Positions 30,001 to 42,000 of a stretch of DNA of 64,000 nucleotides are shown here, piece after piece. Made by a program: the position numbers. This DNA is from Thalia democratica (lineage: Eukaryota), in contig OZ241832.1 in the NCBI GenBank assembly GCA_965202585.1, positions 41,230,001 through 41,294,000 of the forward strand, written 5' to 3'. Numbering within the stretch: the first letter of the stretch is position 1; every line of letters starts with the position of its first letter.

Positions 30001-33000
30001 AGCTGCAAACTTGTTTTATTCAAAAATTTGCAAGTAGCTACTTGTAACATAACAACAAGTCATATATACTTATTTACTTTTGAAGCATGTAAAATTTGCT
30101 TAAACATTTTTATAGATGGTTTTGCTATTATTCTAAAAAATTGCTATCACAGTTTTTGAATTTGTCATGTTAATAATAGCAGGTAAGCATTTATTGTACT
30201 CAAATTAAAAACTTTTTTTACATACAAAATGTTTTTGTTGTTTTTTCAGATTTATTGTTTATAACAAAATGTTTTTAATACTTTGAAAATATGAAAACCT
30301 CTTTTAGTCAGAATGATCTGTTTCTTCTTATGGATGATAGTCAATGGATTTGTAGATCTACTTTGTTAAAATGGTATATAGATAAATTAAAAAAATCAAA
30401 TAAATTTGAAAACTTAGAAGAGTATACAACAGCTGGAATAAAGCTGCTAATTCCTAATAGTGATCACTATGTGCCATTAAAAGAAATATTGTGCAATCAA
30501 GAAGAAAATATTTGCACATATGCAAATGTTAATTTGTTATCCTCTTCTTACATTTTTGTCTTTGGACTTGATTTATCTGCGAGTGTTTTACGTGTGGATA
30601 TTCCACAGTCTCATACTGTTCTTGAAAGCTTAGTTTTAAACTTAGAAAAGTGTCTGCAAGCTCTTGTTGAATGCAACAAACTCAACATAAATGAAAGTTT
30701 TCAACCAAAAATTTATGTATCTATTTTTGCTCAATGGCATGCTACATCTTTTAGTGATGCAAACATAGCAGGTAGACATGTGCAGCACAAATTTTTAGTT
30801 CACTGTTGTAAATTAAGTAGTTGTTTGATCAAGGAATTGATTGACAATGTTAGGCAGTTTGTTTTTAATATTAAAAATACCTATGCTAAACAAGTTGTAA
30901 ATCCATACTCTTGTTCGCAGCAAAACATTTTGATTGGAATGCTCAAAACAGGTCGGTCGAGTTTTAAAAATCAAAAAGCAAATTGTAACTTTAATCTGGT
31001 CATAATAACTGATGGTGTGATTGGTATGCCTGAACAGCGTTCCTTAGACAACATTATTTTTGATTATCATAATTTAGGTATATCTTGTTATTTTTTGCAT
31101 GTTGTATCTTGTGATAATGATTTTGGTTGTATACCAAACTTAGAAGTAATGCAGTATGTTGCTGCCACTACAAAGGGTGATTATTTAAAATCTAGCAATA
31201 GTTTAAATCATTCTGAGTTTATAAATATCTTGCAAAAAAAATTTTTAATTAAGTCACTTTTTAGTGATTTTAAACAAACAAAAGAAGCACTAAGCCCTTT
31301 TATGCATAGGGTATGCCTTGAACAGACAATAGAAGTACCTCTATTTATTTTAATAAAAAGTAAATTAATGAAAGGATTTCAACCTAGTGGTGTAACACTT
31401 GAAGGTAATGTACTTACTGTTGTTTTAGAAAAATATTGGTATAGTAAACAAACCGTTATGCAATATGTTATTACTAATAATTTTGACAAAAACAATGTAT
31501 GTAAAATAAAAGTTCTTATCAAGTGTGCATATCAATTTATGTTAGACTTAACACAAGGACCTAAAATAATTCGTCAAAATGGAGAAAGAAAAATTTGGAG
31601 TGATTTTAGAGTAAATGCTTTATTAAATTGTCATGTTTATATTAGTAAAGAGCTACCAGGTTCAGATAATGTTATACAAGTTCTAAACAGCTTTGTTACA
31701 AATAATAAGCGTCATAACGTACCAAAAATACTATTAAAGGGTCAAGCACTGTTTTATCAAGCAAATGCTCGGGCGCGTATTGAGCTTCAACCTAATAATA
31801 TTGATGTAGATTTTGCCATGTTTTGGAAATTCGTTTTAAACAACTTATCTTACATTCGTAAAGCTTGTTTGCATTCTCACTCAATAGAAGTTATATTACA
31901 AGCTGACAATTTGACAACTGGGTACTATACATCGACAGGATCTGATGCACATTATGCTGCAATAACTTGCAACGTTGCTTTTAATGCTTTAACTGAAACA
32001 CTTAAAAAGTATAGTGACTTTATTTTACTTCATGATAAAGCATATATAAAGGTAGTCAAAAAAATAGAATCTAGTCTTGGTTTTGCACTTGATTGTAGTG
32101 AATGTTATTCACTAGATGTTGAAGAAGCTCCTATATCTTTTATGCTTGTAGAACTTATAAATCGGCAACCATTGATTGTTGTTAATGTTTCCTTTTCTTT
32201 TGGTACAGATTTCAATGTTAGAAAAAAATACTTATCTACTTTAATTAAAAACTTAAATAACATATCTTTGTCCACTCAACAAAATAACAGTACTACAAAA
32301 AAAGCTCGTGTGCGTCATGCCAGCTCCAAGTCAGTTTTAAGTTCAATTAATACTTCAAAACATCCTTTAAATGCAGAAGTTTTAGGTGTTGTTTTACAGA
32401 AACCAATTACCTATACCCTAATTCGTTACGACTGCAGTCCAAGTGATCTTTTGTCATTAAGTTTTCTTAATGACAATGAAAGGTATTTGCGTGAAGAGTT
32501 TTTTCTACACAACAAAACCAATGAGGACGAAGGATGCTTTTATATGTATCACAAACGTTGTGTTTGGTGTATAGAAGACTTGAGCTATGCTAAGACTTTA
32601 GCAGAGTTGTTAGTAAGACTTCGGCAAGTTGAAGGTTACAGTTTAGCTTTTTCATCATGTGGAAATCAAAATATGGTCTGTGAAATAAAAAATTCAGAAT
32701 TTTTGAAGAAAAGTGAGCAAAAAGAAAAGTGTGAGTGTCAGTATGGTAGCCGCCAAATTCAGTACATTATTTTTCCTCCAGCAGTCAATGAGACAGAATC
32801 CACATTTTCATTTTGTGAGTCTGAAGAAGCTGATGATATTTATTTGAATGTAGATGTAATAGAAAAACCTGAGAACTATCTAGCTGCAGAAATTTGTTTA
32901 GACCCACAACAAGTTATGATAGAAAATGAAAAGCAAAAATATAATGTTGATGAATGCTTTTGTAGAAGTGTTTGCTCACAGTTTTATAATGACTTAGACA

Positions 33001-39000: not shown

Positions 39001-42000
39001 TACAGTCAAGCCAAGCTTACTACTCCAAAGTTGTAGACATATCTAACTTGATGCATTTTTATAGCATAAGTCGAAATTTAGACACCTACAGCACAACATT
39101 CGATGCTTGCACTCTATACAAGTTTATAGTCCTTAATGCGGGTATGTTTGGAATGAAAGTTGTAGAAGCTTCTGATACCAAGGAAACGTTAATTTATAAG
39201 TTTTTTTGTGAAAATGAAAGTGATTCAGCTAAAAGTTCTGGCTGTAAATTTAATGAAAAAGTTAGTAGTTTTAACGTGAGTATAGTTGTATACAAAAGTG
39301 ACTTGGTACAACCTTATAAAGATAATTTAGAGCTTAAAATTGCCATTTTATTTACCGAGAAATCAACAAGGTTTAATTCATTAGAAACTAGAATTGAAAG
39401 TTCAAATAATGAAAGAAGATTAAGCAGAGGTATGCGAAAACTTTCAAAATGTTTAGAACAGTCACTACATGTAAAAACAAACATTGATTTAAAAAGTGAC
39501 GACCGTTTAAGAGAAGATAAAATAAAGTATAAAAATTTTTTATCGGAAAAAATTAAAGAAAACATTGAAAATTGGGTTACTGCTGCTGAGAAAGAATGTG
39601 AACGAGCTCAACTCTACAAACGAATTTATGCTCTTGCTTCTGAGAAATCAACTACTACAAATAGAAATATTAAATCGGATTATGAAAGGCTGGTCATACT
39701 AAGTTTAGTAAAAGAAGCTGAATACTTTGACTGCAAGTTACAAAGTTTTTTTAATCAATTAAAAATCGAACGAGACCGTTTCATTAAGCGTATTAGTAAG
39801 TTTTCAAAATGTTACGTCCTTACGGAAGGTATGTCAAAACGAATTTGTATATTTCCCATTACTGCACACGAAAATATTGACATTTTGTTAGTTATTGGTT
39901 TGAATCCAGCTAATATTGTATTTAGTTTGAAAGTTCTTATGCCACCTGATGACTCTGTGGTCAGTAGTTCAAACAGTTGCAAAAGTGTTTCAAAAGTTTT
40001 GCTTCAGAAAGTTCTTTTTGAAATTTTTAATTTGTCAATTTTGCAACGCTTCGTTTAAGCTACACTTAAATTAGTCAATTAGCATAAACTGTTTATAGAT
40101 CATGTAAGTTTTTGTCATTATAGTAATATGTACTACTACATTTTTTATAATTTCTTAATATTTTAAGCATGTGAAACATGCTCATAAGTTACTACATACT
40201 AAGTTTTTTTTTAACTTTAAAAAATAAAAAAAAATTACGGTTCTATTTTATTTTGAAAATTCCTTCAAGTATAGATTTTATAGACTAATTTTCGAAACAA
40301 AAATAGGAACCTTTTTAAAGTTTGTAATTTTATTTTTGTGGCAGCTTTTAAATTATTGTTAAACTTTTTTTTATAGTATTTAGTTTTTATGATATATGAT
40401 ACAACTTATTTCTAACTTTATATGTTTTACTTGGTGAAATAGAAACTTATTGCAAATTATTTTTAAATATTTTTTTAATATGGCTAACTATGTTTTTAAA
40501 TTGCTGGTTTTAGTTTGTTATCTATATGTTATAGAATTTTTTCTAACATATGTAATTTTTATTAAATTTAAGCACTTCTTTAGTCAAGTTTTATTCTGTT
40601 TTTTTTTCAAAAAAAATTATTTACTGGCTTTTTCTATAATTCTCAGTAATTTGTAGACAAATTAAAATTTTACTGCCTTCCTTTTCACAAATTTATTGTT
40701 ATTTACCGAAAAAGCTTTACTTGTAAAGTAAATTCATATAAATGAATAAAAGAGCTTGTGTTTTTTTATAATTTTTTGTACTCATCCAACTAGAAAATTA
40801 TACTTTTCCACTTTTTCAAGCTCCGTTTATTCTACAAAAATAAGAAGTGCTTTGCACTGACTAAAGCAACCTTTGATTTACTTTGTACTCAAGCCTGTTC
40901 GGTAAACTAGTTTACGTAGTATTCTTTAAGATAAAATTATTGAAAAATAAAGACATTTAAGATAAACTTATATTAATTTTGTTGAAATAGAATAGTTGAA
41001 GTTATAAATTCAAGACAGTTCGTTTATATTAAATGTAACGTTAGCTCCTAAAAACTACTTTTACTAATATATTGGTCTTTTAAAAACCGTCTGCATCTGA
41101 ATTATCTATTTTTCGTTTAGTATTGTAAATAGCAAATTTTAAAATATACGAAAATTTCTTACGACTTAATTTACTAGCTTATTTGGTTTTAAAATCCTGT
41201 ATTGTAATAGTCCTTTTTCGCATAGATTTTGATATGCTTGAACCGAGGATATATTACTATATTCAAACAAAATATAGGCTGAGACCAAAAGACAAATAAA
41301 GTTATATCGACACCTAGTGAAATGTAAAACACACATGTACATAAAACAAACAGTATTTATTTTTAAACCCTTAGTATCGGTTTTATAGGATTTTCATAGC
41401 AAATATTTACAGCATAAACCAAATAGTTTTTTATTGTAGAATCTTGATTTTGAGGATGATACAAAAATTTTTGAGTTTGAAACTTCATTTGAAATGGTTT
41501 AACAGATGTGTTGATTGTTGGCAACTCTTTTAAAATGTACTGTGTTAATTTTTATTTTAACCGGTTCTAGTTTTTACTAGCTAGTTCTTGAGATTTTTTT
41601 TAGATATATATACTATTGTGGTAAGTTACATAAATGGTTGAATATAGCTTTGGGTATATTAACATTTTATACTAGATTTTTTTTGCATAAATTTAGGTCT
41701 TTTTCAGTTATTTTTACATTTCTTAAATTAAAGAAGATAAAATGAAGAGTATTCGAATATAAATTAAAAGCTTAGCTTGAAGATTAACTCATTAGTGCTT
41801 AAAACAACATATGTAATACTTTGTAGAGTTGTTAAACTAAAAGTTTAACTTAAGTGGCTTAAACTACAGCCCGAGATCAGCAGTGTTTGTTTTGCTTATA
41901 TAATGTACAAAAGTTGTTTTCGACTTCAAAATCCTTTCGATTATATTAGTTAAAAATTGACATTTTAGAGTTAAACAAAAAAATATTATTTGTATGTAAT

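What the first reader, a model, noticed from the sequence alone, without database searches (positions are those of the whole stretch)
30183..40058. SZT2 encoded by one 9.8-kb exon, apparently keeping only a 5'-UTR intron
Seen: 3255 codons with no interruption, a probable 67-nt intron in the 5' UTR, and no poly(A) tract or TSD after the stop. Established: vertebrate SZT2 has about 70 exons. Inference: near-complete intron loss by recombination with cDNA, which tends to spare the 5'-most intron, or replacement by a very long retrocopy. Either is notable at this length next to an intron-rich CDK5RAP1.
Basis: partly seen in the sequence, partly recalled or inferred. Interest (0 to 1): 0.65.

Follow-up and report, generated by a model that had tools for sequence, protein, structure and literature searches.

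The report
Intronless SZT2 gene in a tunicate
A salp-like sea-squirt relative encodes the very large mTORC1 regulator SZT2 in one uninterrupted 9.8-kb coding exon, and this intron-free state is probably old and shared with related sea squirts, not a recent oddity of this genome.

Summary
Window 30291-40058 (+) is one open frame of 3255 codons (chance about 1e-120). It is a full-length, selected orthologue of human SZT2, the KICSTOR scaffold, which has 71 exons.

A donor/acceptor pair 42 nt upstream of the ATG defines a 67-nt candidate 5'-UTR intron at 30183-30249. No equal pair occurs in 44.9 kb of non-coding sequence. No RNA was available, so its use is unproven. There is no poly(A) tract or target-site duplication above background, and no intron-sized insert or credible in-frame intron.

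The neighbouring CDK5RAP1 has 10 introns in 586 codons.

The window is not human. A protein tree and 26% G+C point to a tunicate, placed where salps (Thaliacea) sit.

Six unnamed, full-length SZT2 proteins of ascidian relatives come from unannotated genomic contigs of 28 kb to 2.8 Mb. The database seems to call plain ORFs there, so the single-ORF state is probably clade-wide and about 300 Myr old or more. Three other genes in the window also keep long intron-free coding stretches.

Best reading: an ancient, reverse-transcript-mediated loss of all coding introns. In-place cDNA conversion and retrogene replacement cannot be told apart here. This is a new member of a known kind, of modest interest.

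The parts
30183..30249 (+). Candidate 67-nt intron in the 5' UTR (CAG|GTAAGC ... TTGTTGTTTTTTCAG|A). The acceptor could instead be a spliced-leader trans-splice site.
   Evidence: Sequence read. A donor/acceptor pair of this quality occurs 0 times in 44.9 kb (both strands) of non-coding window sequence and once in the 1 kb upstream of the ATG. No RNA evidence.
30250..30290 (+). 5' UTR part of the large exon. It holds an in-frame TAA (30276-30278) and a 5-codon upstream ORF (ATG at 30269).
   Evidence: Sequence read. The stop-to-stop frame opens at 30279.
30291..40058 (+). SZT2 coding sequence: 3255 codons plus TAA in one uninterrupted exon.
   Evidence: ORF and chance. (human SZT2: E 4e-49 alone, E 0 and 1135 bits with a profile). 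(colinear with ascidian SZT2 to residue 3241, no insert above 16 aa). (no credible in-frame intron). (no second copy in the window).
40223..40228 (+). First AATAAA after the stop (165 nt downstream): candidate polyadenylation signal.
   Evidence: with the sequence. The function is inferred only.
46001..56788 (-). Comparator gene CDK5RAP1 (mitochondrial tRNA methylthiotransferase): 11 coding exons, 10 GT..AG introns of about 84 nt to 2.7 kb. It is convergent with SZT2.
   Evidence: Exon-by-exon Pfam: UPF0004 and Radical_SAM each split over two ORFs. One exon was searched. tblastn of the database protein P0109 on the window. Junctions were read. My own exons were not joined.

Best explanation
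This is the functional SZT2 orthologue (the scaffold of the KICSTOR complex that restrains mTORC1) of a fast-evolving tunicate, most likely a salp-type thaliacean. Its complete 9.77-kb coding sequence lies in one exon. Upstream of it lies probably one short non-coding exon and a 67-nt 5'-UTR intron.

All coding introns were removed through a spliced-RNA intermediate. A long cDNA either replaced the exon-intron body of the resident gene by recombination, sparing the 5' end, or inserted elsewhere and took over.

The event was not recent. It most likely happened before this lineage split from phlebobranch and aplousobranch ascidians, and after the stolidobranchs (Styela) branched off. The single-exon gene has been kept under purifying selection since.

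Shown: the ORF, orthology, selection, absence of retrocopy scars, and splice-like signals in the 5' UTR. Inferred: the RNA-mediated mechanism, its age, use of the UTR intron, and the taxon.
For: (1) ORF and orthology. establish the ORF. phmmer against the PDB finds human SZT2 at E 4e-49. A profile of alignment A1 finds it at E 0 with 1135 bits in 6 stretches, and also finds a C-terminal SZT2 chain (25ge_C, E 3e-64). The alignment with five ascidian-type SZT2s has invariant columns from M1 to V3241.

(2) Selection. P0002 (unnamed, 3258 aa) is 98% identical. Of its 60 substitutions, 7 fall on the 1097 positions conserved among the distant homologues and 53 on the other 2158 (odds ratio 0.26, Fisher p 1.5e-4).

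(3) No hidden introns. Query-specific inserts are at most 16 aa, and the protein is shorter than all five homologues. The single strict GTAAG..Y5NYAG in-frame pair encloses 176 residues, of which 50 are identical in at least 3 of 5 homologues.

(4) Introns exist elsewhere at positions this ORF runs through. Three unnamed fragments share homology limits at residues 235/236 and 300/301, and two share limits at 458 and 589/591. Each has unrelated flanking residues, as expected of ORFs called across exons. Human SZT2 has 71 exons (PMC6701784, passages).

(5) Age. In one search, 6 of 16 hits are unnamed full-length SZT2s (3506-3559 aa) on contigs of 28,179 nt to 2.82 Mb. For intron-rich CDK5RAP1, 0 of the 120 listed hits is an unnamed protein on a contig above 3 kb; all 27 unnamed ones sit on contigs of 1,359-2,922 nt. 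Unannotated genomic contigs therefore seem to yield whole proteins only when there is no intron.

(6) Placement. The tree gives (Styela,(window+P0002,(Clavelina + unnamed ascidian-type))) with SH-aLRT 100 on both nodes. Holding all ascidian rows together without the window costs 62.4 lnL, p-AU 1.4e-6. Window G+C is about 26%. That matches the lowest tunicate genomes, both salps: 25.3% in Thalia democratica and 28.0% in Pegea sp. (PMC13746493, passages).

(7) The 5'-UTR intron signal is non-random.
Against: No RNA data were available, so neither the use of the 67-nt intron nor the absence of spliced in-frame segments is shown directly.

The claim that the ascidian proteins are single ORFs rests on an inference about how the database predicts proteins.

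The structure of the named Clavelina model (NCBI) is unknown to me.

The window lineage sits on a very long branch (1.97 changes per column) with deviant amino-acid composition, so its placement could be distorted. The AU group was also named after the tree was seen.

Poly(A) and TSD are absent. That is uninformative for an old event and does not favour an RNA route positively.

Stepwise genomic deletion of introns is not excluded.

The window copy lacks three residues (LCD after residue 276) that P0002 and all five homologues keep.
Confidence: 0.6

Rival explanations
1. Retrogene replacement. A full-length SZT2 mRNA was reverse-transcribed and inserted at a new locus. It picked up a host promoter with a non-coding first exon, which gives the 5'-UTR intron. 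The intron-bearing parent was then lost.
For: The CDS has no intron at all. The only intron-like signal lies upstream of the ATG, as is common for retrogenes that recruit a 5' exon. Retrogene replacement of a multi-exon gene is documented for amphioxus SYCP1 (PMC5803294, abstract as listed). A retroelement remnant lies 6 kb upstream, so reverse transcriptase has been present in this genome.
Against: There is no poly(A) tract above the background of one A-run per kb, and no TSD above chance, though an old event would have lost both. A processed insertion of more than 10 kb is far above the usual retrocopy length (general knowledge). Synteny, the only real discriminator, could not be tested.
Confidence: 0.25
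2. The intron loss is recent and specific to the window's lineage. The unnamed ascidian proteins are spliced gene models, so relatives keep their introns.
For: The tool text does not say how unnamed proteins were predicted. The window lineage is exceptionally fast-evolving (branch 1.97). Thaliaceans are reported to lack several DNA-repair genes (PMC13746493, passage), which could go with unusual genome dynamics.
Against: For intron-rich CDK5RAP1, no unnamed protein comes from a contig above 3 kb among the 120 listed hits. SZT2 has six such proteins. The library visibly holds ORF-type calls with intron-like flanks. P0006 starts with 21 unrelated residues and lacks the first ~80 residues, as an ORF call would. 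No retrocopy scars are left, which fits an old event.
Confidence: 0.2
3. The 67-nt element is not a cis-spliced intron. Either the acceptor at 30249 receives a spliced leader by trans-splicing, or neither site is used. In both cases the gene is entirely intronless.
For: SL trans-splicing and operons are established in Ciona and Oikopleura (PMC4122922, passages). The acceptor has the strongest pyrimidine tract seen in this window.
Against: A consensus donor (CAG|GTAAGC) sits exactly 67 nt upstream. AGGTAAG occurs nowhere else in 44.9 kb of non-coding sequence, which a lone trans-splice acceptor would not require.
Confidence: 0.25
4. The long ORF hides short in-frame, stop-free introns (or exitrons) that are spliced out, so the mature protein is shorter.
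For: Splice signals of this genome are weak: donors are GTAAKT, GTTAGT, GTTTGT and GTATGT, and pyrimidine tracts are poor. Signals alone therefore cannot exclude this.
Against: No insert above 16 aa relative to five homologues, and the protein is the shortest of the set. Coding-type position bias is uniform. The only strict candidate encloses conserved residues. P0002 keeps the same length apart from 3 aa.
Confidence: 0.05

Closest known systems
Human/vertebrate SZT2, scaffold of KICSTOR (PDB 9v0j, 9o5a, 25ge)
   Same: It is the same protein family over the full length: E 4e-49 alone, and E 0 with 1135 bits using a profile. Size is similar (3255 vs 3432 aa). The presumed role is as KICSTOR scaffold and negative regulator of mTORC1 (role taken from the abstracts listed).
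   Different: The human gene has 71 exons (PMC6701784); here the CDS is one exon. Sequence identity is only about 25%. Binding to KPTN, ITFG2, KICS2 and GATOR1 was not tested.
Reverse-transcriptase (mRNA-mediated) intron loss by recombination with cDNA
   Same: Many adjacent introns are removed with no residual indel at positions where other animals' fragments end. The only surviving intron-like element is at the extreme 5' end. The model is described in PMC3652778 (abstract as listed).
   Different: The usual cases remove one or a few 3' introns. Here a tract of at least 9.8 kb, which at the neighbour's density would hold about 55 introns, is clean. The mechanism is inferred, not shown.
Retrogene replacement (amphioxus SYCP1, PMC5803294, abstract as listed)
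   Same: A single-exon functional gene stands in for a multi-exon ancestor, and no intron-bearing copy is in view (window only).
   Different: No poly(A), TSD or change of locus is shown. The gene is several times longer than typical retrocopies.
Intron turnover in tunicates (Oikopleura dioica, Ciona)
   Same: The lineage is known for loss of ancestral introns, with reverse transcription plus recombination suggested as the route (PMC4122922, passages).
   Different: This window is neither compact nor generally intron-free: CDK5RAP1 keeps 10 GT-AG introns of up to 2.7 kb.

Membership tests
SZT2 (KICSTOR scaffold) | Significant sequence similarity to experimentally characterised SZT2 | tested here: met
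   phmmer against the PDB finds human SZT2 chains at E 4e-49. The profile of A1 gives E 0, 1135 bits and 6 stretches, and also matches a C-terminal chain, 25ge_C, at E 3e-64.
SZT2 (KICSTOR scaffold) | Full-length colinearity with orthologues (about 3300-3700 aa, N- and C-termini present) | tested here: met
   Alignment A1 has invariant columns from M1 to V3241, and indels are at most 39 aa. The N-terminus aligns from residue 8-10.
SZT2 (KICSTOR scaffold) | Orthology: nests among SZT2 of related animals, single copy | tested here: met
   The tree of 16 rows places it inside the tunicate SZT2 clade with SH-aLRT 100. There is no other SZT2-like stretch in the window. The rest of the genome was not searchable.
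SZT2 (KICSTOR scaffold) | Curated domain model | tested here: inconclusive
   Pfam-A gives 0 families at E up to 0.1. I do not know of a Pfam model for SZT2 (recalled), so this says little.
SZT2 (KICSTOR scaffold) | Binds KPTN, ITFG2, KICS2 and GATOR1, and represses mTORC1 | not tested
   No partner genes are in the window and no complex prediction was run. This needs experiment.
Processed retrogene / retrocopy | No introns within the copied mRNA body | tested here: met
   The CDS is uninterrupted.
Processed retrogene / retrocopy | 3' poly(A) tract | tested here: not met
   Only 8-9 nt A-runs are present, at the background rate of about 1 per kb.
Processed retrogene / retrocopy | Target-site duplication flanking the insert | tested here: not met
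   The longest shared flank word is 11 nt, equal to shuffled and real control pairs.
Processed retrogene / retrocopy | New genomic location, with a parental intron-bearing copy present or lost | not testable with these tools
   No eukaryotic genome collection was open. Only the window could be searched.
cDNA-recombination (RT-mediated) intron loss in place | Exact removal of introns at ancestral positions | tested here: met
   The ORF runs without gap or insert through four exon limits inferred from fragments of other animals, at residues 235/236, 300/301, 458 and 589/591. Those positions are inferred from ORF-type fragments, not from annotated genes.
cDNA-recombination (RT-mediated) intron loss in place | 5'-most intron spared | tested here: inconclusive
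   A strong, non-random donor/acceptor pair lies in the 5' UTR, but there is no RNA evidence that it is spliced.
cDNA-recombination (RT-mediated) intron loss in place | Locus unchanged relative to intron-bearing orthologues (synteny) | not testable with these tools
   Contigs of relatives could not be fetched.

The most novel reading that the evidence does not exclude
[quoted passage not shown] That was after the stolidobranchs split off, about 300-390 Myr ago on the calibration quoted in PMC13746493. The single-exon gene has been kept ever since.

If so, this would be one of the longest RNA-mediated gene conversions or replacements known. It would also be a rare genomic change that independently supports placing salps inside the ascidians.
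Probability: 0.3. Interest if true: 0.5.

Novelty: new member of a known kind. Interest (0 to 1): 0.33.

Why it matters
SZT2 is among the most exon-rich genes in vertebrates (71 exons). A relative whose whole 9.8-kb coding sequence is one exon is therefore a clean, extreme example of complete intron loss in a conserved, selected gene.

If the state is shared by salps and two ascidian orders but not by stolidobranchs, it dates the event. It also gives a simple presence/absence character for tunicate phylogeny.

It sets a lower bound on the length of cDNA that can overwrite or replace a gene. In practice, it warns annotators not to force introns into this locus.

It does not reveal a new kind of mechanism.

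Tried and rejected
- **First guess of organism.** From 26% G+C I first thought of Hydra or another cnidarian. I dropped this when named the nearest relatives (Clavelina, Styela) and searches placed the protein inside tunicates.
- **Human origin.** Rejected: 26% G+C and about 25% identity to human SZT2.
- **Pfam on SZT2.** No family.
- **Rfam and tRNA scans of the window.** Nothing found.
- **Protein atlas with the Tigger transposase, to get a taxon.** Only 'Arthropoda commonest', no help. The second atlas call was not used.
- **The listing of cluster members on P0002.** Whether P0002's 13,275-nt contig is a transcript or genomic stays unknown.
- **Word-based search with the window protein.** It found only P0002. 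The exhaustive search was needed to reach relatives.
- **Literature.** SZT2 together with 'tunicate' gives 1 paper, on intragenic microRNAs, seen as a listing only. The broader searches listed no paper on SZT2 gene structure outside vertebrates. I therefore found no description of an intronless SZT2, within what those four searches cover.
- **Retrocopy scars.** Looked for and not found.
- **Hidden in-frame introns.** Looked for and not found.
- **Second SZT2 copy in the window.** None.
- **Not used.** Structure prediction, fold search and complex prediction were not run, because they would not bear on the gene-structure question.
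Full report
**1. The observation.** Between 29000 and 41000 the only ORF of 150 aa or more is 30291-40058 (+): ATG to TAA, 3255 codons. The window has no N and about 26% G+C.
- In the same 9.77 kb the other five frames carry 161-463 stop codons.
- Two hundred shuffles give at most 158 open codons.
- At the stop frequency of the non-coding flanks (0.081), the chance of 3255 open codons is about 1e-120.
- All 16 successive 600-nt windows show the same coding-type bias: GC1 0.30-0.42 against GC3 0.17-0.28, with purine-rich first positions.

Upstream, CAG|GTAAGC at 30183 and a long pyrimidine tract ending in CAG at 30249 delimit 67 nt. An in-frame TAA at 30276-30278 separates the acceptor from the ATG, so this element is non-coding. 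The pattern AGGTAAG..(35-140)..YYYYYYCAG is absent from 22,441 nt of non-coding window sequence on both strands. AGGTAAG alone occurs there 0 times. The pattern occurs once in the 1 kb before the ATG, so the signal is not a chance feature of AT-rich DNA.

Downstream, A-runs of 8-9 nt occur at the background rate of about one per kb. The first AATAAA lies 165 nt after the stop. The longest word shared by the two flanks is 11 nt, as in shuffled and real control pairs.

**2. What the ORF encodes.**
- Pfam finds nothing.
- phmmer against the PDB finds human 'KICSTOR complex protein SZT2' at E 4e-49, with colinear stretches from residue 9 to about 2243.
- An exhaustive search with residues 1-1100 gives 94 relatives. 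The best five are 3511-3679 aa at about 30% identity, E 1e-86 to 1e-95.
- Aligned with these five and with P0002, the protein is colinear from M1 to V3241.
- A profile of that alignment hits human SZT2 at E 0 (1135 bits, 6 stretches) and a separate C-terminal SZT2 chain at E 3e-64.

The ORF is therefore a complete SZT2 orthologue. tblastn of the protein on the window finds only itself.

**3. Is it a live gene?** P0002 is an unnamed protein of 3258 aa on a 13,275-nt contig. It is 98% identical and colinear, with one 3-aa indel. Of the 60 substitutions, 7 fall on the 1097 positions conserved in at least 4 of the 5 distant homologues, and 53 on the other 2158 (odds ratio 0.26, p 1.5e-4). Change is thus filtered by purifying selection. 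DNA for dN/dS was not available.

**4. Hidden introns?**
- Inserts private to the window protein are at most 16 aa (48 nt). That is shorter than the shortest intron seen in this window (about 84 nt in CDK5RAP1, 67 nt for the UTR candidate).
- The protein is the shortest of the set, 3255 aa against 3506-3679 aa.
- Only one in-frame pair of strict signals exists (36175-36699). It encloses 176 residues, of which 50 are identical in at least 3 of 5 homologues, so it is coding.

RNA was not available, so spliced exitrons are unlikely rather than excluded.

**5. The neighbour and the rest of the window.** I searched the CDK5RAP1 pieces exon by exon and left out the step of joining them into a spliced model.
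- Pfam finds UPF0004 split over two ORFs and Radical_SAM split over two.
- One exon, searched for longer proteins, finds CDK5RAP1 of many animals at 76-80% identity. It also finds an unnamed 586-aa protein, P0109, at 99% on a 1,813-nt, transcript-sized contig.
- tblastn of P0109 on the window maps 11 coding exons from 56788 to 46001 on the minus strand.
- The ten junctions read as GT..AG, with weak donors (GTAAKT, GTTAGT, GTTTGT, GTATGT) and introns of about 84 nt to 2.7 kb.

That is one intron per about 176 nt of CDS. At that density SZT2 would carry about 55 introns.

SZT2 is not the only intron-poor gene here, however:
- An LDLa plus 7TM receptor has 962 codons in one ORF (5520-8405, minus).
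- An SDE2-like gene has 214 codons from Met to stop in one ORF.
- An MLX-like bHLH-zip gene has 230 codons likewise. These last two lie head to tail about 376 nt apart.

**6. Whose genome?** It is not human: 26% G+C and about 25% identity to human SZT2.
- A search from the best hit names it 'KICSTOR complex protein SZT2-like [Clavelina lepadiformis]'. The same search lists Styela clava, then Lingula, Patella, Bursaphelenchus and Adineta.
- A maximum-likelihood tree (16 rows, 3176 columns, LG+G4, quick search) gives (Styela,((window,P0002),(Clavelina and seven unnamed ascidian-type proteins))). SH-aLRT is 100 for the tunicate clade and 100 for the node that excludes Styela.
- The window lineage sits on a long branch (1.97) with deviant composition.
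- Forcing all ascidian rows together without the window costs 62.4 log-likelihood units (p-AU 1.4e-6). I named that group after seeing the tree.
- This is the place that published phylogenomics gives to Thaliacea: sister to Phlebobranchia plus Aplousobranchia, inside the ascidians (PMC13746493, passages).
- The same paper reports the lowest genome G+C of 38 tunicates in two salps: Thalia democratica at 25.3% and Pegea sp. at 28.0% (passages).

I therefore take the window to be a thaliacean, probably a salp. This is an inference from one gene and from base composition.

**7. No collection of eukaryotic contigs was open, so I could approach it only indirectly.
- Of the 16 hits, six are unnamed, ENA-only, full-length SZT2s: P0097, P0006, P0004, P0099, P0100 and P0007, of 3506-3559 aa. 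They lie on contigs of 28,179 nt to 2.82 Mb, so these are genomic contigs, not transcripts.
- Being absent from NCBI, they are not deposited annotations. The database builders must have predicted them.
- The library visibly contains plain ORF calls on eukaryotic DNA. P0081, P0084 and P0089 (115-143 aa) share homology limits at query residues 235/236 and 300/301. P0061 and P0077 share limits at 458 and 589/591. In each, the homologous core is flanked by unrelated residues, as when an ORF runs from an exon into its introns.
- P0006 begins with 21 unrelated residues and lacks the first ~80 residues.
- As a control, for intron-rich CDK5RAP1 none of the 120 listed hits is an unnamed protein on a contig longer than 3 kb. 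All 27 unnamed ones lie on contigs of 1,359-2,922 nt, although unannotated animal assemblies abound.

The simplest reading is that unannotated genomic contigs give a whole protein only when the gene has no intron. On that reading, several ascidians of the sister clade also carry SZT2 as one ORF.

P0055 is a 266-aa fragment, 54% identical to the Styela N-terminus. Its ORF ends just after the conserved ITD motif. The Styela entry is an 'isoform X2'. Both hint that stolidobranchs keep introns.

By parsimony the loss predates the split of the window lineage from phlebobranchs and aplousobranchs. That split is 296 Myr, and the split from stolidobranchs 389 Myr, on the calibration quoted in PMC13746493. 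I put about two in three on this chain of inference.

**8. Mechanism.** Losing every one of some dozens of coding introns, without residual indels at positions where other animals have exon limits, is best explained by a spliced-RNA intermediate. Two versions fit.
- A long cDNA recombined with the resident gene. This tends to spare the 5' end and would leave the 5'-UTR intron. The model is described in PMC3652778 (abstract as listed), and a reverse-transcription-and-recombination route is suggested for Oikopleura in PMC4122922 (passages).
- A full-length retrocopy landed elsewhere, recruited a non-coding 5' exon and replaced its parent, as described for amphioxus SYCP1 (PMC5803294, abstract as listed).

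The absence of poly(A) and TSD would count against a young retrocopy but says nothing about an event about 300 Myr old or more. Only synteny can decide.

The acceptor at 30249 could alternatively take a spliced leader, since trans-splicing is established in tunicates. The matching consensus donor 67 nt upstream argues for a cis intron.

**9. Comparison, novelty and verdict.** The protein is an SZT2 family member on every sequence criterion tested. Partner binding was not tested.
- As a gene structure it is a new, extreme example of a known kind: an RNA-mediated intronless derivative of an intron-rich gene.
- I found no description of it in four literature searches. These cover open-access papers and bioRxiv only.
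- Its interest is modest. Tunicates are known for intron loss, other genes in this window are intron-poor too, and the state is probably clade-wide.
- Its best use would be as a dated rare genomic change for the position of salps, and as a length record for cDNA-mediated conversion or replacement.

**10. What stayed unchecked.**
- RNA evidence of any kind.
- The genomic loci of relatives.
- The rest of this genome, which could hold a second copy.
- The closed collections metagenome contigs and viral contigs.
- The supplementary tables of PMC13746493.

Noticed in passing
window 58831-60547 (-): An SDE2-like gene (CDS 60544-59903, 214 aa, Pfam SDE2 E 6e-29) and an MLX-like bHLH-zip gene (CDS 59523-58834, 230 aa, Pfam HLH E 2e-13) lie head to tail, about 376 nt apart. 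Each runs from Met to stop in one ORF. This is an operon-like pair of single-exon genes, as known from Ciona and Oikopleura. The SDE2-like protein is much shorter than the human one (recalled).
   Followed up: partly
window 5520-8405 (-), with possible upstream exons at 8611-8793 and 8979-9185: A receptor with three LDL-receptor class A repeats and a rhodopsin-type 7TM domain has 962 codons in one ORF. It has no early Met, so at least one upstream exon is likely.
   Followed up: partly
window 19341-24470 (-): This is a G+C-rich (47%) island in AT-rich DNA: a retroelement remnant with a gag-like ORF and an aspartyl protease (Pfam Asp_protease_2). About 860 nt (19466-20329 and 23608-24470) is repeated directly 4,142 nt apart at 98-99% identity, as LTRs or a tandem duplication. 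It also has an internal array of 43-nt units (22317-22829).
   Followed up: partly
window 61920-63566 (+): A Tigger/pogo transposase remnant (CENP-B_N, HTH_Tnp_Tc5, DDE_1 at E 2e-39) is broken into four ORF pieces in different frames.
   Followed up: partly
window about 31116-31121 (after residue 276 of SZT2): The window copy lacks three residues (LCD) of a conserved NPLCDFGC motif. P0002 and all five ascidian-type homologues keep them. It is an in-frame 9-nt deletion, either a polymorphism or lineage-specific.
   Followed up: no
window 10990-11110, 16480-16670, 19050-19240, 27260-27390, 58230-58340, 58670-58860: Six-frame ORFs repeatedly read '...KGHFCTK..TLLH...' motifs on both strands. This suggests a dispersed short repeat family in the intergenic and intronic DNA.
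   Followed up: no
protein P0006 (unnamed ascidian-type SZT2): It starts with 21 unrelated residues and lacks the first ~80 residues of the family. That is as if its species keeps one intron after the first coding exon, which would fit a 5'-sparing loss.
   Followed up: no
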